This document shows, piece after piece, positions 3,452-64,000 of a DNA stretch of 64,000 bases. Each line of letters starts with the position of its first letter. Position 1 is the stretch's first letter. Below the pieces are notes generated by a model. It had not been told where the DNA came from, ran no database searches, and was given only the letters and a program-made list of their open reading frames with translations. Source of the stretch: Azolla caroliniana (taxonomy: Eukaryota; Plantae; Polypodiophyta); the NCBI GenBank assembly GCA_043228905.1, contig JBHGNT010000012.1, positions 9,486,001 through 9,550,000 of the forward strand. Reading direction: 5' to 3'. Position numbers and translations under genes: made by a program.

Positions 3452-3455
3452 CAAT

Positions 3456-10353: not shown

Positions 10354-10592
10354 TGTCGTGTGAATTTTCACACACTATGTAAAAAAATAATGAAATAATT
10401 ATTTTAGATTAGATTAGTAGCTTGTTATGGGGAAAATAGAGCTATAATTTATCCCACATAGATAGGAAATTTAAGGCCCTGGCTATATAAGCACATTGAG
10501 ATCCCTTATTTTTCATTTGTGCTAAGAGCACTTTGGCCACTTTGTCAAGATTGATGAATGTGGCCAAGTTCACAAAAACCGATTGACATAAA

Positions 10593-11570: not shown

Positions 11571-12026
11571 ATGGAGGCATATAGATACAAAGAGCCGAAG
11601 AGATGTGGCCTATACGAATTCGACCAATGGGTATCATCATTAAAGACCCACCAAACTGCCATGCATGCTTTCGTTGAGTTCGAGTGTCGCTTTGCACAAC
11701 TCTCGGAGCGGGATCAAAGATTGGTGGGGGTGGATAAAGTCTTAATGTTTGTGAAATCGATCGATTGGAATGAAAGGAATGCAATTGAAATCCGACTTGA
11801 GGATGACGATGGTGCAAATGGCCTCACAGAAGATTGGACTAAAGTGGAAAGAGTATGTCGACTTCACGATAAGAGGAAGACAAGATTCTCATCGGCAATA
11901 ACACAACCCATGACGGATGGTGAAATGAGGATAGGTAGCAACAACAAACTACCACCTAAAGAAGAGAGCTTGAAGAGGGAAGGTTCGATGTTACTCGACA
12001 TAGAGGCCTTCATAACGAGGCATATG
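11571..12026 (+). pseudogene. Gag-like fragment of E; continues at 17778-18840 as an acidic low-complexity ORF
   Basis: FECRFAQLSERDQRLVGVDKVLMFVKSID resembles element A gag FESRFARLSARDQAILAPDKVIMFLRAVD. Confidence 0.75.
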
Positions 12027-12357
12027 TGTTGAGTGGCAAGCTCAACCGGATCTGGATTGGTTGAATAAGCTTGAGCCGGATCGGCATCCGGAAGGATGAA
12101 GCCGGATCGGCGAGCCAGTGAGCAAGCAAGTCGGTGAGCTGGGGAGCCGGTTAGTCGGATCCATCAGTAATCGGTACTTCTAGGGAGTTAGACTACTAGG
12201 GAGTTAATAGTCTCCTAGTTAGTGTCAGACTCTCGAGTGAGCATTGAAGTACGCGGTACTTCTGTCAGTCCTCTCAGGACTTGTATAAATAGTGCTATTG
12301 AGCACGTTTCATGTACAGAGAACTATTATTGTTTTGTAATAGATCCAAAAACGTTCT

Positions 12358-12397
<40 letters not shown>

Positions 12398-23673: not shown

Positions 23674-25702
23674 ACAGTTAATCCAATGTTATTACTTGAA
23701 GCTAATATGTATCAATCTTTGCAGGGAGTGGAAACGAAGTGAGGAGTAGTAAAGTGGATGGCGGTTTTTCCCTCCCAATTTTTATAACGGAACATTGAGT
23801 GGAACATAATTTGCAAGACAAACTCTTCAAGGTACAAACGGTAGAATCTATTTCAAAGGTTAATAATCAATTTAGTAAGGATAAACAATTGGTTTTACAT
23901 AAAGTACAACAAGTTGATAGGCCCATAGCTTTGAACGAGTTTACAACAAATGAAGTGGTCAAGGTAGACCTAGCACATGCTGACATGGATTGTGGCAATA
24001 TAGTGGCTTTTACAACTGCTAAGTTTTCTGATAGGGTTTCTATAGTAGATAAATATTTGCCATTGCATGCCCATAAGTTGTCTGGGAAAGACATTTGGTC
24101 AAATAAGAGACAAGTAAGGGTTGCGGAGGATGGAATGAAGGGTAGAAAAGGTGTAGTAGCCGAAAGGAGATTAGGAGGGCAAAACATGAATGATTGATTG
24201 GTTAAATATAATTTCATGGAATGTACGGGGATTAGGAGGTAGACATTGTTGTAACTTGTAAGGTAACGACTGTTTTCCGTCGTCAGTTAAGGAAGTATTT
24301 GATAGGTAGGATTGATGTTCTTCTTATTCAAGAGCATCATTTAAATGAACAAAGGATTCAAAAATATGGAAATTCGTTGCTAGGCCAGTGGAGACAGTTC
24401 TAGGTGTCTGCAACTGGGGATATTAGTTTGAAAGCAGGTCTTTGCATTGTAATAAAGGATATTTGGCGGTCTTCTCTCTTACATTACGGTGTTTTGACTT
24501 GTGGTAGAGGTCATTATATAATTCTTCAAATTGGTTTAAAGAAGTGGGGTCTGTTGAATATTTATGCACCAAATCATGCGAGAGATAGAATGACATTATG
24601 GAAGAGCATAATGCCATAGCTATCGGTTGTTGACCACTAGGAAATTGCGGGTGACTTTAATATGTTGGAGGATGGGTGTGATACGTTACGAGGCACATCA
24701 CAAACATTATCTAGTTCATAATTATATGAATGGGAATGTTTGATTTTTTCTTTAGGTTTAATGGACTTGTGGCATGTGTCTTCTTTTGTAAGGATACAGG
24801 ATTCCTTAGCTTATTCAAGATCGCATAAAAGACAGTCACATACCAATTTGTCTAGGTTAGATAGAGTTTATGTTGATAAGTTTTTATGGGACAAAGGAGG
24901 TTCAATTAGAATCTTACCATCTTTTTCTTTTTCGAATCATGCACTACTTCGTTTAGATATAGACTTGCAGGAGTATCATCAAAATTCTAGGTTTAGAATT
25001 TCAAATCATGTCTTTCTTAGCCAAGATTGTGTTCCTATTGTGCAAAATATTTGGAATAAATATGACTATTCAGATGATTATGTAATATGCGCTATCTAGT
25101 GTTCACAAGGCTATTAGCGAAACACAACAATTTTTTCACTATAAAGCTAAACAAGTATTTTATGAGTCATGTACTAAAATAGGAAGCCTTCGGAGGGGAT
25201 TGAGATACTTGCAACATTTGCAAGAGAGAAGACCATATTCGAGGTATATAAGTTCCCGAGTGGTACAATTAGGCATTAAGATATTGGAATTACAAAAGAT
25301 TTCAGCGGATTTTAATTATCATAATATACCGTCTACATGAGCAGAGTCGGGAGATAAAGTCAATAAACTGTTCTTTGTAGTGGATAATTATCATAAGACA
25401 GCTGCCAGGATGTCTCCGAAAGGGCGTGGGTTCAAATCCCACAATTGTCATTAGCGAATTAAAATAATATAGCATTACGAAAAATTTCATGAAATAACTA
25501 GTACGTTATTCTTGTACAAAATAGGGCCTTAGAAAACATTAAACATATTCCTTCTTAGATCTAGTGCTTGCATTGCACATTAATATGCTTAACATTGTTG
25601 CACAGTGAGCTAAATTGACACCACTGAAAAAATATCACTCTCTTTTTTAACACTCGTTTGCCACTTTATCGTGTACACTTCCTTTGATGTCGTCAACCCG
25701 TT

Positions 25703-25782
25703 GACAATTTGACTAAGTGGTCTAAGGCATTGAATTTAGGCTCCAATTCGTAAGGGCGTGGTATCAAATCCCACAGTTGTCA
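25703..25782 (+). pseudogene. tRNA-Leu(UAG) pseudogene
   Basis: 80-nt homologue with a damaged B box (GTATCAAATC). Confidence 0.85.
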
Positions 25783-26034
25783 TTAGAGAATTGAAATAAT
25801 CAAGTGTTACCAAACATTTCATGAAATAACTACTACGTTATCCTTGCACAAAACAGGGCCATAAAAAATTGTAATTGTGTCTTTTCTTCGACCTAGTGCC
25901 TGTATTGCACATTGATGTGCTTAACATTGTTGCCCAGCCACCGAAATTGACACCATTTAAAATATCACTCTCTTTTTTAACAGTCATTTGAAACTTTATC
26001 AAGTGTGCACTTGTTTTGATGTCATCAACTCAAT

Positions 26035-26114
26035 GACAATTTGGTTGAGTGGTCTAAGGCATTGGATTTAGGTTCCAATTCGAAAGGGTGCGAGTTCAAA
26101 TCCCACAATTGTCA
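26035..26114 (+). pseudogene. tRNA-Leu(UAG) copy, degenerate
   Basis: GACAATTTGG...GATTTAGG...GTTCAAATCCCACAATTGTCA with T-stem mismatches. Confidence 0.85.
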
Positions 26115-27341
26115 TTAGCGAATTCAAAAAATCTAGCATTATCAAACTTTTCATGAAATAACAACTATGTTATTCTTGTACAAAAAAGGGCCATATAAAA
26201 TTGTAAGCACGTCCTTTCTTCAATCTAATACTTGCATTGCACATTGATGTGCTGAACATTGTTGCCCATTGACCTAAATTGACACCACTTAAAATATGAC
26301 TCTCTCTTCTTCTTTTTGCAAAAAGAACACTACTTCCCATTAGTTAGCAAACAAAGTACATCAAAGTTCAGCCATAATCAACAAAACTCACACTACTCCA
26401 CACAATACCAAGCATAATCCCCACCCTACTATTTAAAACGAAAGTATCCCACTAACTCTTTTTACATGGTAACCACATAATTACATCTTCTGTCCACTAA
26501 TGTATGCCAATGACGGAAACAACCATCTTGGTGCTTGGTAGTTCCATTTAGGCCCTGATGCTTAATTTACCATCATAGGAGAACGATCCCATTTGAGCAA
26601 AAACTTTGACCGAGCCCTTTCTGCTTCATCCGAGTTCCCTTCAATTCAGTTGTATCGTCTGCGCTGCCAAGATACTAGCTCAAACCAAATGTTTAGCAAC
26701 ACTTGACCGCTTGGGAGTTTTCGTTGCTGAAAAACAAACATACATCGTCTGGTCCAAATGTGCCAGACCGAGACGCATCCCACCAATATCCATATCTCCT
26801 CAAAAAAACCAGAGTTTATACCAGGTATTAGAGATATGATCTAATGGAAGCGTATGATAAGGAGAAAAGAATGATAGATAGATAGATAGAAAGGAGAGAG
26901 AGAAAGTGTCAGGAATAGTACTAAAGTAGAGATGGAATTAGTACTAAGAAGAGTAGTACTATTAGTACTAAGAGGACGGGACTGCGTAAGATTCCCGAGA
27001 GAGAGGAAGTGAGAAGAGGAGAGAGAGAGATAGGATGATGACATCAGCTCTTATATTATATGAAAGATAAGTACAAATCGGCTAAGAGGCTTAAGACTAG
27101 TGTTGAACCAATTTGGTTCAAAACAATGCCTTGTGCCTCCTTTTATAGTGTTTTTAGGAATAATCCTGAAGCTTCTAGAATGTTCCAGGGAGATCTGGAA
27201 TATACATCAATTTTCTATGATAAAGCATAAATGAAAATAATATTCTACAAATTACAATTCATAGTCTAATGGTAGGAGCTCGACCCATGTAGCATAAGGT
27301 CATGGGTTCGAGTCTTGCCCTATCATGACACTATCTCCCTT

Positions 27342-41911: not shown

Positions 41912-43128
41912 GAACGTTATCTCCCAAATTTGGAATTTGCTTACAACAGCTCCAAGCATACGTCGATTGGATATAGTCCTTTTATGTTGATGTATGGTTT
42001 TCAGCCACGAGTCCCGATTGATGTTAATATACATTATGATGAGTTGCGAAGTATGCAAAACTTTCTTCGGGATATGCCAGATATGTTGCATATTGCACGA
42101 GATAATTTAAAAATAGCTCAAGATAGAGCGCGTTTTTATGCCGATCATAATCGGCAAGCTCGTGTATTCAACCCTGGACAGAAGGTAGGTTTAAGTGTAC
42201 CTCACAATTCTAAGACATTGTCTAAGGGAAAGTGCGCTACGTTAGCCCCATGGTTTTGTGGACCTTTTACATTCCTCAAACGCATTGGGTCATCAGCCTA
42301 TCGTCTTGCTCTTCTCGATGGTGTTGAAATTCATCTAGTTTTTCATGTGAGTCGTCTAAAAGACCTTCTAGGTTCTGGTGACAATATTGTTACAACTGAA
42401 ACTCTGGTTACTTCTGAAGAATTATATCTTCTAAACCACATGCACCAGAAAGAATTCTCGATATTAAAACAAAAAAATTACGTATTAAAGAAATACAAGA
42501 ATTTAAAATAAAATGGATGGATAAATCAATAAAAGATGCCACATGGGAATGCGAAAATACTCTCAGAACTAACTTCCCTAACTTTCTATTGGAAGAGTGC
42601 AATGTTTTAAAGAGGGAGAGTATGTTACGGGCATGACCATATAATATCCCGTGGTGAGAATTTACCGTAGTATTCTATACACGTGGATAAGTGTGAGGGT
42701 TAAATGAGAGTGTAAAGAAGGGGAGGATTACTTTTAGTCCACAGGATTGAGACAACCCATTAGGCCAAGTGTGAACTTGCTTGGGGGCCTTGGGTATCGT
42801 TATAAATAAGAGGCCTAGCTACTCCTTGTATTGGACATTGATGTGCTTAACATTGTTCCCGAGGCACCGAAATTGACACCACTGAAAATATAACTCTCTT
42901 TTTAAACACTCTTTTGAAACTTTATCAAGTGTGCACTTGTTTTGATGTCATCGACTCAATGACAATTTGGCTGAGTGGTCTACGGCGCTGGATTTAGGCT
43001 CCAATCCAAAAGGGCATTTTAACACTCTCCATTTGAACATTGTCGCCCAATGAAAATGTCACTCTCTTTTTTAACACTCTTTTGCAACTGTATCCAGTGT
43101 GCACTACTTTTAATGTCATCAACCCATC

Positions 43129-43208
43129 GACAATTTGGTCGAGTGGTCTAAGGCGTTGGATTTAGGCTCCAATACAAAAGGGCGTGGGTTCAAATTCCAC
43201 GGTTGTCA
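43129..43208 (+). tRNA. tRNA-Leu(UAG) copy, near-intact
   Basis: A and B boxes are present and the acceptor and anticodon stems pair; the variable arm has mismatches. Confidence 0.5.
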
Positions 43209-43459
43209 TTACTGGATTGAAACAATCTACCAATACCAAACTTTTCATGGAACACCTATTATGTTATTCTTCTCCAAAACAAGGCCGTAGAAAACATTAA
43301 ACATATTCTTTCTTTGACCTAGTGTTTGCATTACACATTCTGTGCTTATCATTGTTGCCCACCCACTGAAATTGACACCACTTCAAATATTACTGCCTTT
43401 TTTTACACTCTTATGCAATTTTATCAATGATGTATTTCTTTAGATGGCATAAATACATT

Positions 43460-43539
43460 GACAATGTGTCCCAGTGGTTTAAGGCATTGGATTTAGGCTC
43501 TATTTTGAAATGGCGATGGTTCAAATCCCACGGTTGTCA
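43460..43539 (+). pseudogene. tRNA-Leu(UAG) pseudogene
   Basis: 80-nt homologue with many stem mismatches. Confidence 0.8.
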
Positions 43540-43998
43540 TTAGCTAATTGAGATAACCTAGCATTTCATGAAATTACTACTACGTTATTCTTGTACAAAA
43601 TAGGGCGCTATAAAACTTTGAACGTATTCCTTGTTAGACGTAGTGCTTGCATTGCACATTGATCTGCTTAAAAATTTTGCACAACAACCTAAATTGACAA
43701 CACTTAAAGTATCACTTTCTGTTTTAACACTATTTTGCAGTTTTATCAAGTGTGCAATTCAAGCATTGGATTTAGGCTACAATTCGAATGGGTGTGGGTT
43801 CAAATCCCGCAGTTGTCATTAGTGGATTGAAGCAATTTAGAATTTCCAAACTTTTCATGGAACAATTATTACGTTATTCTTCTCAAAATCAAGGCCGTAG
43901 AAAACTTTAAACATATTTTTTCTTCGACCTAGTGCTTGCATTACATGCCTTGGGTCAACCTCGACTATTTACCCTCACATCGACTTGACCGCTTCACT

Positions 43999-44700
43999 TG
44001 CTGTTCCAGTTCTTGGTGAGGGCCACATGGTCCCTCACGTCCGTTCATGTTCTAGTTCTCGTTGAGGGCCGCATGGTCACTCACGCTCGTTCGTGTTCAG
44101 TTCTCGGTGAGGACCGCATGGTCACTCATGTCCGTTCGTGTTCTGTTCTCGGTGAGGGTCACATGGTCACTCATGCCCTTTCGTGTTTTTGATGAGGACC
44201 GCAGATAGTCGCTCACATCCAGTTCTTGATGAGGGCCACACAAGGTCGCTCACGTCCGCTCGTGTTCCAGTTCTCAATGAGGGCTACATGGTCGCTCACA
44301 TCCGTTTGTGTTCAGTTCTCGGTGAGGGCCGCATGGTCACTTATGCCCTTTCGTGTTTTCGATGAGGACCGCAGATGGTCGCTCACGTTCTAGTTCCATA
44401 TGAGGGCCACACATGGTCACTCATCGTCGTTCGTGTTTAGTTCTCCGTGAGGGCTGCATGGTTGCTCACATCCATTGGAGTTCGTGTTCCAACTATCAGT
44501 GAGGAACGACATGGTCGCTCATGCCCGTTGGTGTTCGTGTTCCCTGTGAGGACCACACATGGTCACTCATGCTCGTTGGTATTCGTGTTCAAGTCTTCGG
44601 CGACGACCGCACATGGTCGCTCACTCCAGCTATTGTTCGTGTTCCAGATCCTGGCGAGGACCGACATGGTTGCTCATGCCTGCTGTTGTTCATGTTTCAA
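43999..44700 (+). repeat. ~45-bp GC-rich tandem repeat in the 3' UTR of truncated gypsy K
   Basis: GAGGGCCGCATGGTC(A/G)CTCA...GTTCGTGTTC units, e.g. at 44064, 44109 and 44154. Confidence 0.9.
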
Positions 44701-46395: not shown

Positions 46396-46831
46396 GGTTC
46401 GTGATTTTTGAATTCCAAGTGAAGGGGGCTTGCTTAAGTCGACGGAGTGTCAACTTGTTCATCTCTGACTGAAACCCGGGGGGCTGGTGTTGTTGGGATG
46501 GGGGCTGAAGCCTAGAATGGCGTCACCCCCATCCCAAGGGGGGTTATGATAAAGAGAGCTAAAGAGAAAGACAAATAGAAAATGACACAAAATGAGATGG
46601 GAAAAATGTATATCCATTACTTGCCCCATAAGGGGTTTATATAATACATAATGTAACGGTAAATAATGACCATTACAAAAGAGACGACCGTTACACTCTT
46701 GTCACATGCACATAATTGTGCATGTGCTCACACATACTCATGCTCACACTCATATACATTACACATACTGAACAACCCCTTTAACGTGTTTCACCCTTAT
46801 ACCGCACCGTACAACTCCTACGGGTAACACA

Positions 46832-46848
46832 TGGCACACCTGTGGGAC
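46832..46848 (+). promoter_or_regulatory. Inverted tRNA-Arg PBS-like site at the PPT position of B
   Basis: TGGCACACCTGTGGGAC, 2 nt from the LTR. Confidence 0.75.
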
Positions 46849-48987
46849 AGTGCATCGCATGGTGAACCCACTCGCCCTGGCAACTATTAACGACCAGAAC
46901 CCCATCGGTCGTCTCAACGGTCAGAAATCCATCGACCAGATTATAGCTTTACAATCGATAACTTCGATCGAAGCATTGCTTGACTCGAACCTTCTCGTTC
47001 GGTCAGCATGTCGCTCAATTGGATCCCACACCAATTGGCTCATCTATTGCGGCTTGGGTCTTTTCATGATTTTGTTACATGTATCTGTATTTTCGGTTTC
47101 GTCATGTGAATTGAGCTTTGTATATTTTTACCCTTGGTCTCGAAGAAATTTTTACCCTCAAAATTTTTGATTTTTTTTTTTTTATGCCCTTCAGTTCTCG
47201 AAATTTCTTCTTCTGCCCTCAAGCTTCTAAAATTCCGTACTCCTTGCGCTTTTGAAATTTTGTCTTCTCTGCCCTTATGTTTCTAAAATTTCTCTTCATA
47301 TCCCTCTTCTCTCTCTTCGTTTCCTTCTGTCTCCTCTTTTTCTTCTTTCTTTTCTTCTTGTGCGATCTTCTCTTCTTCTGCTTCTTCTTCCTCCTCTTCG
47401 TTTCTACCATCTTCTTGTTGTTTGTCTTCGCTTACTTCCTTGCCTTCTTTTTGTCGCTGTCCTCCTCTCATTTCTTCCTTTTCTGTCTCCTCTTGGCGCC
47501 ATCTCTGTCCATCATCCGTCTCTCTTTGCCGACTATCGGCTTGCTATCTGTCTTGCTCTATCCGCTGGCTGCTGGCTGCCGGTTGTCCTACCATTTGTCG
47601 GACATCGGTTCAACCGTTGTTGTTCGGCCGCCTGCTATCTGTGGCCAACAGAGACAATGGCGACCGGCTTCCTGTCTGGCCGCCTCTACGTCGGTTGTAG
47701 CCGTTTGTCGGTCATCGGCGGCGGCGGCGGCGGCCGGCCGATGTCTCTGTTCGCCATCGCTGTCACCGTCAGCTTCTTCGCCGTTCGCTGGTCGTTTCTG
47801 TATGGTCGCCGCTGTCTCTGTCGGCTGCCTGCCCACTGGCCCACTCTCTACCGGCCAGTCGTTCGGCTGTCTCCGTTGCCGCCCGAATGGCTCTATCAGA
47901 CGGACGTCAATTGTCCCCCCAAGCACCACTCATCGACCTCTTCCTAGAAAGTATTGTGGCCACTGAAGATTCTTCTTGCCTTTGCATTGGTTGTTGCCTC
48001 ATCTGCTGATTATGAAGAGCACCTTCAGGCTTCATTGCAATGCTCCTCTCACAAGATACTGGCCTCTGCTAAACCCTAAGCCCTAAACCGTTCAGGCTTG
48101 GGGGATGCGCTGCACTGACCATATGTTGTTGGCGACTGTGTCTAGATCTTTCTTGTGGCAGAGGGTACCATTCCCCTCATCTCACCCGCTCTTCTTGGCT
48201 AAATCTGAGTTTCTTGAGAATCCCATTGACAGTATTCCCTTTCTTCACGAGAAACTCATGGTCCCATGTCTTTATACTCTGATGATTTTCAGTATGACAT
48301 CTCTCCATCTCCGAAGGGTTGTATAATAGAACTTGAAACCAGTTCTCTACAACAATTTTGGGTGATTCTTTCATCAGTCCCTTCAGCTTCTCCTCGGCTA
48401 GATCACAAATCTTTCTTTGAGACTCAAATCTTGGTTTATTCTTGCTTGTTCCTTGTATATGCTATACATTGTTGCATAGTGTCTCTAATCGTCTTCTCAA
48501 GGCATACTCCATATCGAGACTTTGATTCCAACCATTTCTTTTGCTTGTCAAGCTTCATAGGCAGTATTGAGATCTCCATTGCTGGCTGGCTCCCACACAG
48601 ACAGTACACGCACAAAACCACACTCTTTTCACACAAAGATTGGTTGACACAGAGAGAGGGAAAGAGAGAGAGATTAGTGATGGAGAGGGAAAGTGAGAGA
48701 GGGGGAGTGTATCCAACAACAGAAAGACACAAAGAGAGAGAGAGAGAGAGAGATAGTTCCTCTCAATCACACGCTTGTCACTGTTACCATGGCCAGTTGT
48801 TGTGGACTTTCCCGCATCAGCCATGGCCAAAAGCAACATCTCTTATATGTATCTTCTCCTTCGCCATGACTGCAAATACCAACAAATAGTAGAACAAGGC
48901 AGATTGAGAGAGACACAGACACACACACATATTTAGAAACACAGAGACGTAGTCAGGGAGGGAGTGACTTCCTCTCAAAGGAGGGTC

Positions 48988-49005
48988 GTCCCACCGGGCA
49001 TCCCA
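48988..49005 (-). promoter_or_regulatory. PBS of B (tRNA-Arg UCU-like)
   Basis: Minus strand TGGGATGCCCGGTGGGAC, 4 nt (GTTT) from the LTR. Confidence 0.75.
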
Positions 49006-50056
49006 AAACTCTTGTTGGGGTGGGGGGTGAAGCCTAGAATGGCTTCACCCCCATCCCAAGGGGGGTTACGATAAAGAGAGCTAAAGCATAAGACAAATAC
49101 AAAATGACACAAAATGAGAGGGGAAAAATGTATATCCATTACTTGCCCCATAAGGGGTTTATATAATACATAATGTAACGGTAAATAATGACTGTTACAA
49201 AAGAAACGACCGTTACACTCTTGTCACATGCACATAATTGTGCATGTGCTCACACATACTCATCCCCACACTCATATACATTACACATACCGAATAACCC
49301 CTTTAACGTGTTTTACGCTTATACTGCACCGTACAACTGCTACGGGTAACAGTTGGATCATCTAAACCCGCTCTTCGAGGTCACTATTGTCCGCCGGAAT
49401 AGTTACCGACAGACAAGAGCGCAGTAATATGGAATAGAATAATATTGTAACGCATGTAATGGTTCACGCAGGAAGCGTGAACGGCTAAAAAACCTTGCGT
49501 ATATAAAGGGCAGAAAACCTCTAATAGAGGTAGCGTATAATTTTGAATGTAGAAGGCATATCTTAATAGAGTTCTATCTTCTCTGATATGTGTGCGTATT
49601 TGTGGTTAATCTACTGTCTGTCTGTAATCTTTAGGAGCGTAGGCGTGAGTAACAGTGTGTGCGCTAGCCCACTGTCTAAGGAGCTCAGTTGTGGCTGTAT
49701 CCCTTATACGTTGCTAGGTTACGGGAGGTATCCCACTAAGTATTACGCATAGACGCTACCATTCGTTGTCACACAGTCACTTTGAGGTCTAGGTCGAGGG
49801 ACTAACCATAGACCGTGTTACTAATCGGTAACACTTTTGGCATGCTTGGTGATGTGTCTTCTAACAGAAGAACAACGACGAATGGAGGTTTAGCCGCAGA
49901 CGCCCTAGAGAACCAACACGACAAGACCGGCCAATCACAAGGTCCATCACGCGCCAGGCAGAGGAACGCGCACAACGAAAGCCTCGCATCAGTGACCTCA
50001 GTACTACCTATCGGGACAACAAAGACGATTTCCCACTCTCCAAATACCTCGGCGAT

Positions 50057-53000
50057 ATGCGGGAAGCGCGCTCACCGCAGAAGCACTGTGGTCTTTCCCT
50101 GCCCGCCGTAGCACCCAGCATGGCCTTTGCCTATCCCCGCTTCAACGGCGAAACCGACGCCGCAACCCACATCCGCCTGTTCCTCAATGTCTGGAATGCA
50201 AACCACATGGCGCACAACCTTTCCGAGGGACTTGCGCACCAGTCCAAAATGACGGAGTTCGGATTAACCTTGGATGGGAAAACGACGTTTTGGCATTAGT
50301 AGATGGATCTGCCAGCAATCACGACCTTCGACCAGCTCCAGTCAGCCTTTCTGCGGTTTTTTCATCGGAGGGTGCCGCAATGCGAAATCCTCGGGCAATT
50401 CTACACAATTAAATAGTTGGTGACCTAGACGATCGCGGATTTCAGCCTATGTTTCCAAAATCTATAGCGGAAATTAGAACGGGGGCCGAAGGAGGACAAG
50501 GCTAGGGAGACATTTTGGCAGCATTACGCCGACCCATACAGAAATGACCGATATGGTCATAGAAAGAGCGGTACAACTCGAGCTGGACGAAGAAGAGGAA
50601 AGGTTTTCCATGTCCTCATTACGGCAAGCGTTACCTCAGGACGAGGAAAGACATTATCGTCAAGCGATCCAGTGCACGATTTGCTTGAATTTGGGGCATT
50701 CCGCAATGGAATGCAACATGCGAATCCACTGTCCAATCTGTCACTCAAAAGCTCACACAGTTGAGCAGTGGGAGTACAATATGTTGAACAGAGCCACGCC
50801 CACAGTACGCAGCGTGGACACACAACGTCCCCCACGCCGTAATGAACAAAGGCGGCAAGAAGACCGACCACGGTATATGGATCGCAATCCACGCGATGAT
50901 CGGCACTACCGGAATCGTCGGAATCACAACTATTCCGAGGAAGATGAGCCGGAGGATGAAGACTACCGTGGCCACCTCTAAAATACTAAAGGGCGCCGAC
51001 GCTCTGAGAATTACCGTTCGACAAACAAACATGCTGGACCTCTTGGAAAGCATCGGCAATATCGGGACCACCGGCGGTATGACGAAAGTTCGGACAATGA
51101 CCGACACCAAGAACCACGCTGGGACCAACAACAACCACCGCGTACGCTCCGACGAACGAATCAGGACTGGGAGGAGCAAGTCACACATGGGGATTGGCAC
51201 ACACCACCAGGGACCGAGAAGGGCGAATCTAGCATCCATTGTTTTGTTTGTCAACAGCCCGAACATTATGCCACACAATGCCCAGTACGCAAGGGCAAGG
51301 GGCCCGCCGTCAATATGATTACGACGGAAGTACAAGTCATGACACGCCAACAAAAAAAAACTGTTGATTGGGTCACGCAAGATGAGATACGGTGAACAAC
51401 CCAAGCATGGGTTGAAAAAGCAAACGTGACAAATACGGAGCACATGCAGAAGGAGTCTGCAAACACGGTGGACCTATTGGAGGACGAGGGACCATCCCTA
51501 TACCCCATATGGCAAGCATTGACAAGCTGCGAGATAACATTAACCATGGAGAAGCTGCTGCAACTAGTCCCACGATTCCGCCAAGCCGTGGAAGAGCGGG
51601 TGACGGGCAGACCTGGGGTAAGCATCGCCGCGAATTTTAGGAACATTAGTGACAGACCGACAGTAGTGGATCACCACAACCCAGCTTTTAAGTTGATATT
51701 ACACGGTCAGGAAATCCCAGGATGTGCAATTGATGGTGACTCGAGCGTTAATGTAATTAGTGCGAAGACATGAGAACAATTGGGAATTTTAGAATGGGAA
51801 GCTTGCCCGTTCTGGCTCCGCATGGGTTGATACGCAAGGTAGGCATTATCGTGGGAAGACATTGCTTCGAAATCTCGACGATAGTTCTCGCCCTTGACGC
51901 CCCAGGGGCATATCCTATGTTGTTGGGCCGACCGTGGCTTCGTTCAGCGAATATCAAGCAGAGCTAGCAACACAAGTGTTTCAGCTTTCGACGCAGACGC
52001 ACCAAGGTCCGCGTACCGACAGAGGAAATGGCGACACAACCCAAGGGCATAACACCATTATACGCGGAGGATATAAATATGATGGGTGTGGTGGTTGATA
52101 CAGAATTAGAGACATACCTAGACGAGCACCCTCTGATTATTCTGCTGTTCGAAATCGACGTCGTAGAAACCACGACGGAATATGCCACGCCCAGTACACT
52201 CCACGACGAGGCTTACGAACGAAACCCGGAGTCAATATTAGAACTAAGCAGAGCACGGGCAGCGTTCGAGAGGGAAATGGAAATTTTGCGGTATATGGGA
52301 GAACAATCGACCATTTTACGCATCTACAACTATGCCTAGAACGTTGCCACACCGCACGCTTAAGCCTGAATCCCGCCAAATGTGCCTTCGGCGTTACCAG
52401 CGGGGCTCTCCTCGGCCATATAGTCAGCAAGGAAGGGATAGTGGTCGATCCGAATAAAATCTCTGCCATTACCCAAGCGAAAACGCCGACAAACGCGAAA
52501 TCACTCAGCCGTTTTTTAGGACAAATTCGATGGCACAATCGGATGATACGCTATCTGGCGGACTTCGCCACGCCATTACATGCCGCTGTTCATCGGACTC
52601 CCTTCCAATGGAAAACGACCGAAGAAAAGGCATATGATGCGCTAAAGGTAATGCTAACGCAGGCACCCGTCGTACAACCACCAGTTTGGGCGAAGCCATT
52701 CCACGTGTTCATAGATGCCTCGGACATAGCAATAGGAAGTGCGCTAATGCAGCTCACAGAGCCGAATTGGTACCGGCCGGTGTACTACGCTAGTCGGAAA
52801 TTATCAACGGCGGAGCGTAACTATTCCACAACGGAAGGTGAGGCGTTGGGGATGATCTACAACATCAATAAGTTTCGGCATTATCTGTTAGGGAGGAAAT
52901 TCATGTTTCACGTGGATCATTCGGCACTGCTGTATTTGGTGGAGAAACAAGCGCTGACGGGGAAATTGGCAAGATGGATCCTACGGCTTCAAGAATTCGA

Positions 53001-54476
53001 CTTTGTAATTCAGCACCGCACGGGTATGCAACACGCAGTGGTAGATTTATTTAGCAGACTCGATAATGGAGAAATGGCGTAGAGGTATGATGACGACTTT
53101 CCGGATGTAGACATTCTGCGGGTAGCAGCACTTGTAGAAAGAACGGAAAAGACCTTCCCGGACCGGTGGCTCGTGGAAATGACCTACTTCCTGACCATGG
53201 GGTTACCGCCACCTCAATTATGGTTGGATGAGAAAAAAGGCTGGCCGTCCGCAGTCGGAATTTCTGTTTAGTGGAAAATATACTATACCACAAGGGCAGT
53301 AACGACATCTGGAGGTGCGGAATACCGTAGGATGAGAAGCCCCCGGTTATACGCGAAGCCCATTGTGGTACGGTGCGAGGACATTAAGCGGGCGATGTTA
53401 CGGCTCGGAAAATTTGGCAAGCAGGACTGTGGTGGCCGACGACGCAAAAGGACGCGTATGAATATTGCAGGTAGTGCGATTTATGCCAACGACTGGGCCA
53501 ACCCACAGAAATCGCAAGAATGCCACATCAATCAGTGTTGCCACTAGATCCGTTCCAAAAGTGGGGGTTAGATTTCGTGGGACCTTTTACTCCGGCGGCC
53601 GCTCGAAAAGGCAATAAGGACATCCTGGTGGCTACGGATTACTACACGAAGTGGGTAGAAGCGAAACCACTAAGCGAGAATACTGCGGCAGTCACAACGA
53701 AATTCCTGTACGAACACATCTGGTGTCGTTTCGGCTGCCCTATCGAGCTCATTAATGACCAAGGGAGTCACTTTCTGTTTACGGTCATCAGCGAACTGAC
53801 CCAACATTACGCGGTGGTGCACAAGAAAAGTATGCCGTATTACCCGCAGGCAAATGGCTTGGCGGAATCCACGAACAAAACCCTTCAAAATATCCTCAAA
53901 AAGATAGTCAATGAGAATAGGACGGATTGAGACACCAAGTTGCATAGTGCGTTATGGGCATACCGTACCAGCTATATGAGCATAATACAATCAACACCGT
54001 TCAGGCTAGCATTTGGTTTGGAGGTCGTGATGCCAGTTGAATTCCAGATACCCAATCTACGGATCCAAATACGAGCCCGGCTACTAGAGGGCAAATCCGC
54101 ACAAATACGGCTACAGAAACTACTAGAGCTAGGAGAAACAAGGGTACGCAGTATGGCCATATTAGAGCAGGAATAGCGGCGGCGCAAAGCATTCGTTGAC
54201 CGACACTGGCACGGGCGTGAAAAAGATTTAACGGTTGGAAGAGCGGTATTAGTTTTCCAAACCCGCATGGGACATATGCCAGGAAAATTACGATTCCGTT
54301 GGACAGGCCCGTACTGGATAGTAGGAGCAGAACAAGGAACGTTTCAATTGGGCACGCTAGTCGGGGAAGTGTTACGACCGAAAGTGAATGGGTTTCGCCT
54401 TAAACCTTATCTGGGACCTACGCCACCTAACACGTTCCCCATCGGACACGACAAAGCCGGAGAATCCACGGAGTAA
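50057..54476 (+). pseudogene. C gag-pol (most of RT deleted at ~52280)
   Basis: Gag YPRFNGETD and CCHC knuckles; protease AIDGDSSVNV...LLGRPW; RH FIDASDIAIG; integrase KWGLDFVGP, NDQGSHF, ANGLAE; WTGPY. Confidence 0.9.
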
Positions 54477-57528: not shown

Positions 57529-57551
57529 AGGGATGGGTTCGATTTGCCATG

Positions 57552-57573
57552 GCACTGTCCCACAGGTGTGCCA
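57552..57573 (-). promoter_or_regulatory. Inverted tRNA-Arg PBS-like site at the PPT position of C
   Basis: GCACTGTCCCACAGGTGTGCCA-GG-LTR; the identical 22-mer occurs in B. Confidence 0.8.
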
Positions 57574-59482
57574 GGTGTTGTTCGCCGGAATAGTAACCGA
57601 CGGACAAGAGCACAGTAATATGGAATAGAATAATATTGTAACGCATGTAATGGTTCACCCGGGAAGCGTGAACGGCTAAAAAACCCTGCGTATATAAAGG
57701 GTAGAAAACCTCTGATAGAGGTAGCATATAATTTTGAATGTAACTGGCCTATCTGAATACAGTTCTATCTTCTCTGATATCTATGTGTATTTGTAGTTAA
57801 TCTACTGTGTGTCTGTAATGCTTAAGGGCGTAGGCGTGAGTAAGGGTGTGTGCGCTAGCCCACTGTCTAAGGAGCTCAGTTGTAGCCGTCTCCCTTATAT
57901 GCTGCTAGGTTACGGGAGGTATCCCACTAAGTATTACGCACAGACACTACCATTCGTTGTCACACAGTCACTTTGAGGTCTAGGTCGAATGACTGACCAT
58001 AGACCGTGTTCCTAATCGGTAACACTTTTGGCACGCTTGGTGATCTGTGTCTTCTCACAGACGAACAACGAAGAATGGATGTTTAGCCGAAGACGCCCCA
58101 GAGAACCAACACGACAAGACCGGCCAATCACAAGGTCCATCACATGCCAGGCAGAGGAATGCGCACGGCGAAAGCGTCGCATCAGTGACCTCAGTACTAC
58201 CTCTCGGGACCACAAAGATGATGTCTCGCTCTCCAAATACCTTGGCGATACGCAGAAAGCGCGCTCACCACAAAAGCATTGTGGTCTTTCCCTGCCCATC
58301 GTAGCACCCAACATGGCCTTTGCCTATCCCTGCTTCAACGGCGAAACCGACGCCGCAACCCACATCCACATGTTCCTCAATGTCTGGAATGCAAACCACA
58401 TGGCACAGAACCTTTCAGAGACAGTAGCGCACCAGTCCAAAATGGCGTGAGTAACGGTGTGTGCGCTAGTCCACTGTCTAAGGAGCTCTGTTGTAGCCGT
58501 CTCGCTTATACGCTACTAGGTTACGGGAGGTATCCCACTAAGCATTATGCACGAACACTACCATTTGTTGTCACACAGTCACTTTGAGGTCTAGGTCGAA
58601 GGACTGACCATAGACCGTGTTCCTAATCGGTAACAGTCACCTTGAAGAAATGCATTCTTCACATCCATCTCGTGAAGATGCCACCCCGTTGGGACAACAA
58701 CCGCCACCACCACACGAACTGTCATCATCTTCGCTATTGGAGCAAAGGTCTCGTCATAGTCAATTTCGTGGGTGTACGTGAATTTCTTGGCCACTAACTG
58801 GGCCTTGTACCAGTTGACCGAACCGTCAACATTATACGTCACCTTTTACACCCACTTGAAAGCGATTGGTTTGCAATGTCAGGGAGGGTCAACCAGGTCC
58901 CATGTGTCATTGGCATCGAGTGCCTGCATCTCTTCCTCCATTGCGACACGCCAATTCGCGGCTTTTTCTACCTCTGCGTAGCTCTCCGGCTCACACACTC
59001 CGCCATCTTTCACATGTACGCATAATGATGCACCATGTACTCATTATACCCATACCATTTGACGGGGTCCTTCTAGCGGGTTGATCAATGTAATTGCTCG
59101 TTTCCCGATTTTAAGGCTCTCTTTGCCGACTCGGACCTCGTAACAGAAGGTCTGTCTTCTTTCCTTCCGGAGTCAGATTCCCTCCGATTCGACTAGTCTC
59201 TACAAATCTGTCATCTTCTTCCTAACTTTTTCTTTGCACATGAACCATCACCTCAGTTCCTTACATGGGGAAAGCGCGGCCAACTCTCCATTACTTGCCA
59301 GCTCTTCATCTCACTGGTCGATCCTACCCAATCGCTCGTTCAGCCCAGTTAGCCAGAATGAAATCAAACACTCATCGAGAGTCCAAGACTCTTCTTCTTT
59401 GTCTGCTCGGATCGTTTCAAGCTCACTGGCCTCATCCTCTATAATCGGAGTCGGACATCAGTGTCGACAAAGAGTACTACTT

Positions 59483-60698
59483 CTACACTCTATATAACAT
59501 ATTAGGGAAGTCTCCATAAAGGCATCCATAAATATGGAATTCTAATCACTAAGACTTGACTTCCTATGTGGCGTGAATAAGTTCATGTACACAATCTATA
59601 TGACATATGAGGCAAGTCTTGATAAAGCCATGTAAAAATACATGTGCACATTCTATACAAAATATGACACAAGATTGCACTCGTGAAGTTATTGTGCAAT
59701 GTGATAAAGGAAAACTAATGATATGCCAACTTCATACGTAATATGGGTTAAGGCCCTCCGACAATAATGGATAATGCCAAGCTGATTGTTTGTTGAGCGT
59801 AGGTCTCCATGACCATAATTGGACTTCTAACCATTAAAGTATAACCATCAAATGCTCTTCAATTGAAAACAATCTTGGTTGACACGAACAGTAGAAAGGA
59901 ACCTTTGTTGGGGATGGTTGATCGTAGCTTTTTGCTCAAATTAAATTGTTATGGTTCTTGGTATTTCCAACCTACTTCCTATCTCAAATCCATTGGGATT
60001 TGAATCATCTTTAAAAGTTGATATAGACTCACTTTAGGTGTGGTCGGTGGGATTTGAGCCAAGGTATCCACAACCGCAACGTGGAATTCTAACCACTAAA
60101 CTAGAACCACCGAGTTTGTATTGCAAAATTGGAAGTAAGTCTTCACAACCACAACATTGACTTGTAATCACTAAGTACTGCCTTCAAATGTTGCATGCAT
60201 AAATTCATAGCTACACTCTATATAACATATTAGGCAAGTCTCCATAAAGGCATCCATAAATATGGAATTCTAATCACTAAGATTTGACTTCCTATGTGGC
60301 GTGACTAAACTCATGTACACAATCTATATGACATATGAGGCAAGTCTCCATAAAGCCATGAACAAATTCATGTGCACATTCTATATGAAATAGAAGCCAT
60401 GATTACACTTTTGAAAACATTGTGCAATGTGGAAAATGAAAACCAATGATATGCCAACTTCATACCCTGCCGAATTCAAAATTTTACAATTTTCGCACGT
60501 GAATGTACACTGAATTTCAGGGTTCCGAATGCGATTCATGGGCAAGTCTCGACTGCGACGACCTCAATTTTTAACCATTGAGTTGATTTTTTTGCTCAAA
60601 TTAATTATTGTGGTTGTTTGCATTTGCAAACACAAATCCATGTACACATTCAATACGTAATATGGGTCAAGGCCCTTTGACAACAATGTATAATGCCA
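59483..60698 (-). repeat. tRNA-His-containing satellite (~728-bp period)
   Basis: 59483-59735 repeats at 60211-60465, with a ~106-bp subrepeat and dispersed tRNA-His D-arm fragments. Confidence 0.8.
60039..60110 (-). pseudogene. tRNA-His-derived pseudogene (anticodon GUG>GCG)
   Basis: Minus strand GTGGTTCTAGTTTAGTGGTTAGAATTCCACGTTGCGGTTGTGGATACCTTGGCTCAAATCCCACCGACCACA matches plant cytosolic tRNA-His. Confidence 0.85.
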
Positions 60699-60949
60699 TT
60701 AGAGAATTCAAATAATGTAGCATTATCAAACATTTAATGAAATAACTACTACGTTATCCTTGTATAAAAGAGGGCCATAAAATTTTTAAATTGTGTCCTT
60801 TCTTCGACCTAGTGCTTGCATTGCACATTGATGTGCTTAAGATTGTTGCCCAGACACCGAAATTGACACCACTTAAAATATCACTCTCCTTTTTAACACT
60901 CTTTGAAACTTTACCAAGTGTGTAGTTGTTTTGATATCATTGACACAAT

Positions 60950-61033
60950 GACAATTTGGCCGAGTGGTCTAAGGCGTTGGATTTAGGCTCCAATTTGGCC
61001 GAGAGGGTGTGGGTTCAAATCCCACAAATGTCA
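60950..61033 (+). pseudogene. tRNA-Leu(UAG) copy with a 4-nt insertion
   Basis: 84-nt homologue with A and B boxes intact. Confidence 0.75.
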
Positions 61034-61349
61034 TTAGCAAATTAAAATAATATAGCATTACCAAAAGTTTCATGAAATAACCACCACGTTATCCTTGTAG
61101 AAAATAGGGCGCTAGAAAACATTAAACATATTCCTTCTTAGATCTAGTGCTTGTTATCCTTGTAGAAAATAGGGCGCTAGAAAACATTAAACATATTCCT
61201 TCTTAGATCTAGTGCTTGCATTGCACGTTGATGTGCTGAACATTGTTGCACAATGACTTAAATTGACACCACTTAAAAGATAAGTCTCTTTTTAACATTA
61301 TTTTGCAATTTTATCAATGGTGTACTACTTTTAATGTCATCAAGACATC

Positions 61350-61429
61350 GACAATTTGGCTGAGTGGTCTAAGGCGTTGGATTTAGGCTCCAATCCGAAA
61401 GGGCGTGGGTTCAAATCCCACAGTTGTCA
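61350..61429 (+). tRNA. trnL-UAG: tRNA-Leu(UAG), structurally intact copy
   Basis: All stems pair (GACAATT/AGTTGTC, GCT/GGC, TTGGA/TCCAA, GTGGG/CCCAC); loop TTTAGGC; CAA upstream. Confidence 0.7.
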
Positions 61430-61705
61430 TTAGCGAATTAAAATATCTAGCATTACCAAACATTTCATGAAATAACTCCTACGTTATTCTTGTACAAAAT
61501 AGGGCGCTAGAAAACATTAAACAAATTCTATTCATCTACAAAATAGGGCGCTAGAAAACATTAAACACATTCCCTCTTAGATCTAGTGCTTACATTGCAC
61601 ATTGATATGCTGAACATTGTTGCCAAGTGAAAATGTCACACTCTATTTTAACACTCTTTTACAGCTTTATCAAGTGTGCACTTCTCTTGATGTCGTCAAC
61701 CCATC

Positions 61706-61785
61706 AAGAAATTGGCCGAGTGGTCCAAGGTGTTGGATTTAGGCTCCAATACAAAAGTGTGTGGGTTCAAATCCCACGGTTGTCA
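61706..61785 (+). pseudogene. tRNA-Leu(UAG) pseudogene
   Basis: Acceptor stem broken (AAGAAAT). Confidence 0.8.
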
Positions 61786-62092
61786 TCAGTGGATTAAAAA
61801 AATCTAGCAATACCAAACTTTTCATGGAACAACTATTATGTTATTCTTCTCCAAAAAATCTAGCAATACCAAACTTTTCATGGAACAACTATTATGTTAT
61901 TCTTCTCCAAAACAAGGCCGTAGAGAATATTAAACATATTCTTTCTTTGACATAGTCCTTGCATTACACATTGTGTGCTTAACATTGTTGCCCACCCGAT
62001 GAAATTGACACCACTTCTAATATCACACTCTTTCTTTACACTCTTATGCAAATTTATGAATGATGTACTTCTTTTGATGTCATCACCTTAAT

Positions 62093-62172
62093 GACAAATT
62101 AACCGAGTGGTTTAAGGCGTTGGATTAAGGCTCCAATCTGAGAGGGCATGGGTTCAAATCGCATAGTTGTCA
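62093..62172 (+). pseudogene. tRNA-Leu copy with AAG anticodon
   Basis: Loop TTAAGGC; D- and T-stem mismatches. Confidence 0.8.
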
Positions 62173-62354
62173 TTAGTGAATTGAAAAAATCTAGCATTAC
62201 CAAACTTTTCATGTAATGACAACTATGTTAAAATCTTGTACAAAAGAGGGCCATAAAAAATTGATGTGCTGAACATTGTTGCCCATTGACCTAAATTGTC
62301 ACCACTTAATATATAATTTTATTTTTTAACACAATTTGATGTCATCAACAGATC

Positions 62355-62434
62355 GACAATTTGCCTGAGTGATCTAAGGTGTTGGATTTAGGCTCCAATT
62401 TGAAAGGACGTGGGTTCAAATCCCATAGTTGTCA
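62355..62434 (+). pseudogene. tRNA-Leu(UAG) pseudogene
   Basis: A box damaged (TGCCTGAGTGA). Confidence 0.8.
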
Positions 62435-62682
62435 TTAGTGAATTAAAATAATCTAGCATTACAAGAAATTTCATTACATAACTAATACGTTATTCTTGTA
62501 CAAAATAGGGCGCCACAAAAATTTCAGCATATTCCTTCTTAGATCTAGTGCTTGCATTGCACATTGATATTCTTAACAATGTTGCAGAGTGACCGCAATT
62601 GACACGACTGAAAATATCACTCTCTTTTTTAATACTCTTTTGCCACTTTATTTAAGTGTACACTTCCTTTGATATCATCAAC

Positions 62683-62762
62683 GACAATTTGGCTAAGTGG
62701 TCAAAGGCGTTGGATGTATGCTCCAATCCGTAAGGGCGTGGTATCAAATTCCTCAGTTGTCA
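62683..62762 (+). pseudogene. tRNA-Leu pseudogene
   Basis: Loop TGTATGC and damaged B box GTATCAAAT. Confidence 0.8.
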
Positions 62763-62995
62763 TTAGAGAATTCAAACATTTAATGAAATAACTGCTACGT
62801 TATCCTTGTACAAAAGAGGGCCATAAATTTTTTTAATTGTGTCCTTTCTTCGACCTAGTGCTTGCATTGCACATTGATGTGCTTAACATTGTTGCCCAGA
62901 CACTGAAATTGACAACACTTAAAATATCACTCTGTTTTTTAACACTGTTTGAAACTTTATCAAGTGTGTACTTGTTTTGATATTATCGACACAAT

Positions 62996-63075
62996 GATAA
63001 ATTGGCCAATTGGTCTAAGGCGTTGGATTAAGGCTCTATGCCGAGAGGGCGTGGGTACAAATCCCACAGTTGTCA
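62996..63075 (+). pseudogene. tRNA-Leu copy with AAG anticodon
   Basis: Loop TTAAGGC; B box mutated to GGTACAAATC. Confidence 0.8.
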
Positions 63076-63190
63076 TTAGCGAATTAAAATAATATAGCAT
63101 GACCAAAAGTTTCCTGAAATAACAACTACGTTATCCTTGTAGAAAATAGGGCGTTACCTAAATTGACACCACTGAAAATATCACTCTCTT

Positions 63191-64000
63191 TGGTACGGGC
63201 ATGATCATATAATATCCCTTTGGTACGGGCATGACCATATAATATCCCGTGGTGAGAATTTACCATAGTATTCTATACACGTCGATAAGTGTGAGGGTTA
63301 AACGAGAGTGTAAAGAATGGGAGGATTACTTTCAATCCTCGGGATTGAGACAACCCATTAGGCCAATTGTGAACTTGCATGGGTGCCTTGGGTATCGCTA
63401 TAAATAAGAGGTTTAGCTACCCTCATTTGATCATATTGTTGACTACTTCGAGACTCTGTTTTGTGGTGGGTCAACTCTTGTAGCGAGTGCGCCAACACCA
63501 GGTACGACTTGACGCCACGACGGTGGTATGGGACGCCGATCGAGGATCGAGTCCGTCTCGATCCCTTCGCTCGGGGGTGGTCGGGTGGATAGGCACCCTT
63601 CTTTCTCTCTCCTTTCTATCTATTTATCTATATTCTATCTTTATCTAATGCTTATATTAGTTCATGTCTCTAATAGTTGGTATCAGAGCGTATGTTCTAA
63701 TGTTTCTTTTGTTGGTTTTGTCTTCTTGATGAATGGCAATCGATCAATGTGTAGTCGACTTTGTTCCAAAAAACAATGAACAAAGGAACTTCGGTAATCT
63801 TTTTTTTTTTTTCTATTCTTTCTTCTCCCAATTTAATCATGTGTATGGTTAATATGTAATTTTTTATTATATAAATTCAATGATGTTGTAGTGGTAATTA
63901 ATTGGTTATATAAAACATTTACATATGTGCACGGGGTCAATACCTCATTTGACATATAAATAATATGTGATTAGTGTTATATGCGTACAAGGTTAATACC
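63191..64000 (+). mobile_element. Chromovirus family G, copy G3: 5' LTR (63191-63675) and iMet PBS (63678-63689)
   Basis: Matches 42623-42822; a 30-bp duplication at the LTR start; TGGTATCAGAGC. Confidence 0.88.

What the first reader, a model, noticed from the sequence alone, without database searches (positions are those of the whole stretch)
46830..49009. A non-autonomous element with unrelated LTRs keeps the same two opposed tRNA-Arg sites
Seen: B has TGGCACACCTGTGGGACAGTGC 2 nt inside its left LTR and, on the opposite strand, TGGGATGCCCGGTGGGAC 4 nt inside its right LTR. Neither side has a PPT. The 22-mer is the exact reverse complement of 57552-57573 in C, and the spacers match too (2 nt; 4 nt xTTT), although the LTRs and interiors of B and C show no other visible similarity. 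Inference: conservation of only these signals implies function, with B mobilised in trans by C-type elements. This independently supports the dual-primer model.
Basis: partly seen in the sequence, partly recalled or inferred. Interest (0 to 1): 0.8.

Follow-up and report, generated by a model that had tools for sequence, protein, structure and literature searches.

The report
Gene-less retrotransposon keeps tRNA-for-PPT swap
A 2.9-kb plant jumping element with no genes of its own lacks the purine tract that normally starts the second DNA strand and carries in its place the same copy of an arginine tRNA's 3' end as unrelated gene-bearing elements, so this site is likely a required copying signal, most likely a docking site for a second tRNA primer.

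Summary
Observation confirmed. B (46488-49351, read on the minus strand) is a separate insertion with its own LTRs and 5-bp TSD, no gag/pol trace and no PPT. Its 22-mer is the exact reverse complement of C 57552-57573 (longest shared word 22; at most 16 in 100 shuffles). The shared part is larger than reported: a 40-46-nt module made of tRNA-Arg(TCT) bases 49-56/58, a mini-hairpin, then bases 59-76 minus one base, ending in CCA 2 nt before the 3' LTR. It adjoins four unrelated LTR types (B, C, L002, L003). Only the 3' sites are identical; the 5' PBSs differ. B's odd letters at its 5' site are private to this copy, and a second B-like copy (L001) holds both sites. B is not derived from C. This C copy is broken, so the helper element is unidentified. 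Best reading: a second tRNA primes the plus strand (about 0.5); rival: the element's own tRNA-like RNA does (0.27). No priming was shown. Ten paper searches found no description. The scan noted this site many times before on other DNA of this genome; new here is its retention in a gene-less element.

The parts
46483..46487 (.). B target-site duplication, left (GCTGG; right copy GTTGG at 49352-49356)
   Evidence: empty-site joints 46478>49357 and 46485>49356 in runs X1 and X2
46488..46829 (-). B 3' LTR (342 nt; TATA box at position 187 and a pyrimidine-rich part on the minus strand)
   Evidence: K2P distance to the other LTR 0.064
46832..46848 (-). B 3' site: copy of tRNA-Arg(TCT) bases 59-76 with one base missing, ending in CCA, 2 nt before the 3' LTR, at the place of the PPT
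   Evidence: compared by eye with plant tRNA-Arg(TCT) rows in the PMC8662596 supplement
46850..46860 (-). mini-hairpin (3-4 bp stem, 3-4 nt loop) inserted between the two tRNA-like blocks
   Evidence: alignment A2; pair counts: 78.6% of cells paired, one change on both sides
46864..46871 (-). second tRNA-like block GTGGGTTC = tRNA bases 49-56 (T-stem 5' strand and T-loop)
   Evidence: present in 5 of 6 informative copies, absent in L002; L003 is cut here by another insertion
46872..48987 (-). B interior: no gag/pol; about 250 nt next to the 3' site are shared with many other copies, the rest with few
   Evidence: Pfam none above cut-off in 23 frames scanned; tblastn of 120 homologues 0 hits; depth table
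48988..49005 (-). B 5' PBS for tRNA-Arg(TCT), 16 of 18 matching in this copy; at both mismatched places other copies mostly show the tRNA's letter
49010..49351 (-). B 5' LTR
49385..49833 (+). C 5' LTR (TSD GTCAC at 49380-49384 and 58636-58640)
49838..49851 (+). C 5' PBS, 14 nt pairing with tRNA-Arg(TCT) with G-U wobbles, after a CTTT spacer
   Evidence: comparison by eye
49913..54437 (+). C gag-pol, broken: many stops and frameshifts, about 230 aa of RT absent
57533..57573 (+). C 3' module: tRNA bases 50-58, hairpin, bases 59-76 minus one, 2 nt before the 3' LTR; follows a broken extra ORF
57576..58024 (+). C 3' LTR; followed by a second PBS (58029), 430 nt of gag start and a partial third LTR (58444-58635): remnant of a tandem unit
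   Evidence: K2P 0.093

Best explanation
B is a gene-less LTR element with no polypurine tract that likely borrows Gag, RT and integrase from a gene-bearing element of C's lineage and likely uses a host tRNA-Arg to start both DNA strands. Shown: anatomy, own TSD, lack of coding traces, the two opposed sites, the shared 40-46-nt module, its presence beside four unrelated LTR types. Inferred steps: (1) RNA is made from the minus strand of the window; tRNA-Arg(TCT) binds the 5' PBS and primes the first strand as usual. (2) Once RT has copied the 3' module and RNase H has removed the RNA, the new single-stranded DNA offers a split PBS: 17 nt for tRNA bases 59-76 and 8-10 nt for bases 49-58, with the mini-hairpin looped out. 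(3) A second tRNA binds there and its CCA end is extended: two spacer bases, then the TGT of the LTR, the spacing normally set by a PPT. (4) The site is inherited from the template, not recopied from the primer, which fits the one-base gap fixed in all copies. The helper is not this C copy.
For: Exact 22-mer between otherwise unrelated elements. Site ends in CCA, stops at tRNA base 59 and resumes with bases 49-58 beyond a hairpin. In C and L004 it follows coding sequence and precedes the 3' LTR, so it holds the PPT position. All 4 of 4 metagenome hits to the 24-letter pattern are retroelement junctions, two with LTRs unrelated to B or C; 0 of 12 prokaryote hits to the bare site were followed by NN-TGT. 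The hairpin has one change on both sides, 18 of 500 shuffles reach its score: weak, but it points to a single-stranded state. The T-stem fold in the element's own RNA shows no compensation and none of the 6 3' modules folded does better than shuffles. A split PBS with a small loop is known for Ty1 on the first strand (PMC5371799, passages). Non-autonomous elements are expected to keep only priming signals and need no LTR homology to their helper (PMC10886601, passages).
Against: No priming, cDNA end or RNA was observed. One tRNA base is missing in 7 of 7 copies, and against the angiosperm tRNA-Arg(TCT) form seen in all five caryophyll species of the supplement the site has an A-C mismatch; host tRNAs were not seen. 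The upstream block is absent in L002 and has mismatches in B, L001a and L004. A tRNA paired to DNA should be cut by RNase H (established knowledge). L001a, L002, L003, L004 were found by an exact pattern, so their identity in the core is by construction; the one copy found otherwise (L001b) differs at 2 of 22. No autonomous element with a B-type LTR was found.
Confidence: 0.5

Rival explanations
1. The element's own RNA at the 3' site stays on the first strand, is cut after CCA and primes the second strand: a tRNA-shaped replacement for the PPT, with no second host tRNA.
For: Same position and spacing as a PPT. It tolerates the fixed one-base gap and the A-C mismatch, and explains conservation of the non-tRNA flank GCACT by enzyme recognition. 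It needs no new step beyond altered RNase H specificity; Ty3 RT and its PPT are fitted to each other (PMC5371799, passages).
Against: In a full RNA-DNA hybrid neither the hairpin nor the separate block for tRNA bases 49-58 has an obvious use, yet both persist in 5 of 6 informative copies. No tRNA-like fold is supported.
Confidence: 0.27
2. The 3' site pairs with the 5' PBS inside the genomic RNA (closing the RNA into a loop for packaging or strand transfer), and the second strand is primed in some other, unseen way.
For: The two sites are complementary: predicted duplex -23.5 (B), -17.7 and -19.9 (C), -19.5 kcal/mol (L001b) (no shuffled control). 5'-3' bridging is known for Ty3 and Drosophila Gypsy. 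L001 shows the two cores swapped relative to B.
Against: Complementarity follows from both matching one tRNA. The blocks for bases 49-58 and, in C, 59-62 have no partner at the 5' end. It leaves the exact 2-nt spacing and the lack of a PPT unexplained.
Confidence: 0.12
3. The module is a functionless relic spread by template switching between co-packaged RNAs, or B is a rearranged piece of C.
For: One origin of the module is likely; B and C lie 28 bp apart; L001 shows rearranged junctions.
Against: B and C have separate TSDs in one Copia RT frame, an empty B site exists, homology ends sharply after 46 nt on both sides, and without it the elements have no second-strand signal at all.
Confidence: 0.06

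Closest known systems
Non-autonomous LTR elements (TRIM, LARD, SMART, Cassandra, Helenus, Ajax; PMC10886601 abstract and passages, PMC7215508 passages)
   Same: Two LTRs, 5-bp TSD, PBS, no protein; LTRs need not resemble those of the helper.
   Different: They are described with a PBS and a PPT. B has no PPT; its tRNA-like piece is outside the LTR, covers only the 3' third of the tRNA and its B box is split by a hairpin, so it is not the Pol III promoter of Helenus. At 2864 nt B exceeds the TRIM limit of 1000.
Plant non-chromovirus Ty3/gypsy, OTA superclade, nearest Athila (PMC6317226 passages and Additional file 5; ATHILAfinder preprint 10.64898/2026.03.20.713144 passages)
   Same: C: gag-PR-RT-RH-IN order, no chromodomain, no archaeal RNase H, 5-bp TSD, extra ORF after pol, 3-6 nt AT-rich spacer before the PBS.
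   Different: Athila uses tRNA-Asp/Asn and has a conserved PPT junction; C uses tRNA-Arg and has none. C groups with fern, liverwort and unnamed metagenome proteins, sister to an angiosperm clade.
Bipartite PBS of Ty1, Ty3 and Drosophila Gypsy (PMC5371799 passages; PMC1635307 abstract and section 19)
   Same: A tRNA site near the 3' end of the genome; a PBS split by a small loop (Ty1).
   Different: Those sites are complementary to the tRNA on the genomic RNA, bind other parts of the first-strand primer and coexist with a PPT. Here the 3' site has the tRNA's own sense, includes CCA and takes the PPT's place.
Alternative first-strand priming: Tf1 self-priming, half-tRNA of copia and Ty5 (PMC5371799, PMC6317226 passages)
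   Same: Shows that LTR elements have changed primers in evolution.
   Different: All concern the first strand; the second strand stays PPT-primed.

Membership tests
Non-autonomous LTR retrotransposon (B) | two direct LTRs TG..CA with TSD | tested here: met
   342-nt LTRs, K2P 0.064, TSD GCTGG/GTTGG with one mismatch, empty site seen
Non-autonomous LTR retrotransposon (B) | no gag/pol coding capacity | tested here: met
   Pfam nothing above cut-off in 23 interior frames; tblastn of 120 homologues 0 hits while C gives E down to 1e-175
Non-autonomous LTR retrotransposon (B) | 5' PBS | tested here: met
   16 of 18 to plant tRNA-Arg(TCT)
TRIM / LARD (B) | PPT before the 3' LTR | tested here: not met
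   longest purine run 3 in 22 nt, 4 in 60 nt
TRIM (B) | shorter than 1000 bp | tested here: not met
   2864 nt; limit from PMC10886601
Non-autonomous LTR retrotransposon (B) | mobilised in trans by an identified helper | not testable with these tools
   no genome held; C copy broken
Helenus / TRIMp3 (B) | tRNA-derived Pol III promoter inside the LTR | tested here: not met
   ARAGORN and Rfam find no tRNA in B; the tRNA-like piece lies outside the LTR
Athila (C) | non-chromovirus pol without aRH, 5-bp TSD | tested here: met
   PF13456 in 0 of the 8 closest homologues; table
Athila (C) | PBS for tRNA-Asp/Asn and a PPT | tested here: not met
   PBS matches tRNA-Arg(TCT); no PPT
Athila (C) | falls inside the Athila clade of RT-RH trees | tested here: inconclusive
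   quick tree of 63 rows, 256 columns, no REXdb references; C in a 37-row non-seed-plant clade (SH-aLRT 95), sister to 11 mostly angiosperm rows
Tat / Ogre / Retand (C) | archaeal RNase H domain | tested here: not met
Phygy / Selgy (C) | 4-bp TSD, tRNA-Trp or tRNA-Ala PBS, no extra ORF | tested here: not met
   5-bp TSD, Arg PBS, 3 kb extra region

The most novel reading that the evidence does not exclude
A lineage of non-seed-plant Ty3/gypsy elements, with its gene-less passengers, primes both DNA strands with host tRNA and has dispensed with the PPT; because both ends then carry the same tRNA core, interiors can flip or swap cores between the LTRs (as in L001), and any RNA flanked by the two sites and two LTRs, captured host genes included, can be copied.
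Probability: 0.45. Interest if true: 0.88.

Novelty: new variant of a known kind. Interest (0 to 1): 0.7.

Why it matters
Second-strand priming from a polypurine tract is treated as universal for LTR retroelements (PMC5371799, PMC10886601), and annotation tools seed on it (ATHILAfinder). A lineage that has replaced it shows the step can be rewired. Gene-less elements keep only what copying needs, so B is the cleanest sign that the 3' module is such a signal and marks its minimal extent (about 40 nt). Whichever primer is used, host tRNA or a tRNA-like piece of the element's RNA, it is a route not found in the searches here, and a short-oligo priming assay can decide it.

Tried and rejected
No genome is held, so the genome-wide co-occurrence test could not be run. 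No RNA holder was listed among sequencing runs; this says nothing on expression. Viral contigs gave no relative by protein, none by site pattern and one non-tRNA chance hit. The 12 GTDB hits are chance. Rfam finds no family at C's module (one hit at E 7 elsewhere). The window's tRNA-Arg(GCG) call at 60037-60110 is degenerate and unrelated to the sites. Host tRNA-Arg was not obtained; supplements of PMC6317226 and PMC7544208 held no matching sequence, and the per-element table of PMC6317226 was not among the files held. Folding of the 3' modules is no better than shuffles (z -0.47 to 0.87 in 6 of 6). One search used a structure string off by one to three columns and is void; one search is the correct one. 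A displaced PPT was rejected: B has no purine run over 4 nt within 60 nt of its 3' LTR. A Pol III promoter was rejected: the B box is split and no A box was seen. The reading that B's full 18-nt 5' PBS was recopied from tRNA is left open, since Ty1 and Ty3 do not recopy it. The careful tree did not finish; the quick tree is used. Look-ups of earlier findings near the locus, by sequence, by words and in relatives gave nothing.

Full report
Setting. The window is nested plant retroelement DNA: several Ty3/gypsy and Copia elements and three tRNA-Leu tandem arrays. The nearest named relatives of C's RT-RH are from a fern (Adiantum, 53-54%) and a liverwort (Riccia, 42%); eight unnamed metagenome proteins reach 73-81%. 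The host is probably a non-seed plant; that is inference. No genome is held.

Observation. Every coordinate of the finding holds. B has 342-nt LTRs at 46488-46829 and 49010-49351 (K2P 0.064), TSD GCTGG/GTTGG. C has LTRs at 49385-49833 and 57576-58024 (K2P 0.093, left LTR taken one base too long), a partial third LTR and TSD GTCAC. The 22-mer is an exact reverse complement. The longest word shared by B and C is 22; 100 triplet-shuffles gave 11 to 16. The LTRs are unrelated by local score, and blastn finds one significant hit only: 46 nt, 85%, E 8e-8. Neither element has a PPT; four other elements in the window have purine runs of 8, 5, 7 and 10 in the same 22 nt against 3 for B and C.

B is its own insertion. 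B and C sit 28 bp apart in one Copia RT frame on the minus strand, each with its TSD. Contigs of runs X1 and X2 join across the B site (one contig each per joint), and 32, 21 and 35 contigs in X1, X2, X5 run on from 46487 into the host sequence. B has no gag/pol trace: nothing above cut-off in Pfam for 23 frames (3, 20; of 33 listed), and 0 tblastn hits from 120 homologues, which hit C at E down to 1e-175. The first refutation (B as a product of C) fails.

Orientation. In C and in L004 the hairpin-type site follows coding sequence and precedes the 3' LTR. By homology B reads on the minus strand: 5' LTR 49351-49010, PBS, interior, 3' site, 3' LTR. Its LTR has TATATAAA at position 187 on that strand, though a TATA-like word exists on the other strand too.

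What the sites are. Plant nuclear tRNA-Arg(TCT) sequences were read from the supplement of PMC8662596 (rows shown only) and compared by eye. B's 5' site matches the last 18 bases at 16 places. In four runs (three samples) laid on this junction, 97-99% of depth at 49002 and 48-73% at 49000 shows the tRNA's letter, and about 98-99% at 49009 shows the letter that makes the spacer equal to C's CTTT (depth of contigs, no copy count). So B's oddities are private. The distal seven bases vary: 26-42% of depth differs at 48993-48994, and loose ends and L001 show a shorter, 10-11-nt match. C's 5' site pairs for 14 nt with G-U wobbles. The 3' site equals tRNA bases 59-76 less one base, with CCA; it gives 15 Watson-Crick pairs, one wobble and one mismatch with the form found in all five caryophyll species, 16 plus a wobble with a second form, 17 with a low-scoring third. 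Upstream, past a mini-hairpin, lies a block equal to tRNA bases 49-56 (B) or 50-58 (C). Tool results do not number tRNA bases or place m1A58; that numbering is from general knowledge.

Spread. A 24-letter pattern (site, two free bases, TGT) found 4 metagenome contigs, all retroelement junctions: L001 is B-like (70-80%), L004 C-like, L002 and L003 have LTRs unrelated to B, C or each other. Their identity in the core is by construction; what counts is that it recurs beside four unrelated LTR types. L001 also holds a second B-like copy not picked by the pattern, with another interior (an HSP70 fragment, E 2e-13) and both sites: a 5' site with an 11-nt match and a 3' module differing at 2 of 22. 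The second refutation (other copies lack a site) is not met in the one further copy where both ends were seen; this is n = 1 on a contig of coverage 2.3 with rearranged LTRs. The bin holding B's 3' site is the deepest of B's bins in three of four runs, and the 250 nt inside it are about ten to fifty times deeper than the interior: the B LTR family is larger than B.

Helper. This C copy cannot be the helper as it stands: many stops, and about 230 aa of RT missing (P0005 914-1145 unmatched). Trans-mobilisation by the lineage is plausible, as LTR homology is not required (PMC10886601), but the partner may be any family with this module, including an unseen one with B-type LTRs.

Mechanism. Both live models put the second-strand start at the CCA, 2 nt before the LTR. 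For a host tRNA: the split match with a looped-out hairpin makes sense on single-stranded first-strand DNA; the hairpin has one compensated pair (18 of 500 shuffles reach the score, 136 of 500 the count, seven related rows, weak); the T-stem that the element's RNA could form has only unpaired departures and folding is not better than shuffles. Against: the fixed gap, the mismatch, L002, and RNase H attack on a tRNA-DNA hybrid. For the element's own RNA: it needs no new step and tolerates gap and mismatch, but leaves hairpin and upstream block idle. I put them at 0.5 and 0.27; 5'-3' pairing alone 0.12; relic 0.06. B argues that the module is needed; it does not choose between the first two.

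Comparison and novelty. B works like a TRIM/LARD-type passenger but fails the PPT test and the TRIM size test. C is an aRH-less non-chromovirus near Athila but fails Athila's PBS and PPT features; the quick tree places it in a non-seed-plant clade. The two-site cases in print (Ty1, Ty3, Gypsy) bind the first-strand primer on the RNA. Ten full-text searches showed no tRNA-primed second strand; I saw listings for most hits, passages of PMC6317226, the ATHILAfinder preprint, PMC10085805, PMC7215508, PMC5371799 and PMC10886601, abstract and section 19 of PMC1635307, and supplement rows of PMC6317226 and PMC8662596. The library lacks most subscription journals, and bioRxiv supplements are closed, so absence from print is not proven. 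The scan has noted the same module many times on other pieces of this genome (45 notes fit; more); these are unchecked and not independent support.

Verdict. Real feature; first reading partly supported; new variant of a known kind, with a possibly new priming route. Interest 0.7.

Noticed in passing
window 655-1219: End of a third element with a B-related LTR (701-1219; shared 47-nt hairpin, 85-91%) and a B-like leader, but its 5'-type site reads TGGCGACCAC, matching the 3' end of plant tRNA-Arg(TCG), after a 5-nt spacer: the family switches Arg isoacceptors. Its other end is outside the window.
   Followed up: partly
L001 2640-3214 and 1567-1588: A B-type 5' leader joined to an LTR in the opposite orientation, 1-nt spacer, core of the 3'-site type; the same element's 3' site has the 5'-type core. 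Could be inversion through the two opposed sites, or an assembly chimera (coverage 2.3).
   Followed up: partly
L001 1840-2346 (minus): 5' fragment of an HSP70 gene inside a B-like gene-less element (Pfam E 1.9e-13): gene capture.
   Followed up: partly
L001 688-1889: Two B-like 3' ends back to back, 75% alike, joined near LTR position 270-300.
   Followed up: no
window 46488-46829 vs 57576-58024: LTR termini are crosswise: B (sense) begins TGTTACC and ends AACAACA, C begins TGTTGTT and ends GGTAACA. Chance, shared att sites, or an old flip.
   Followed up: no
window 57576-58635: C ends in LTR, PBS, 430 nt of gag start and a partial LTR within one TSD: collapsed tandem unit.
   Followed up: partly
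window 25300-26300, 42800-43900, 60500-63200: Three tandem arrays of about 330-nt units each holding a tRNA-Leu-like gene (ARAGORN 6, Rfam 9 hits; units 60-90% alike): tRNA gene arrays or a tRNA-derived satellite.
   Followed up: no
window 2752-8999 and 10354-20052: Two other gypsy elements with PBS TGGTGAACCCGACGTG (tRNA-Trp by recall) and ordinary purine tracts; they served as controls.
   Followed up: partly
window 43981-44700: Minisatellite of about 45-nt units.
   Followed up: no
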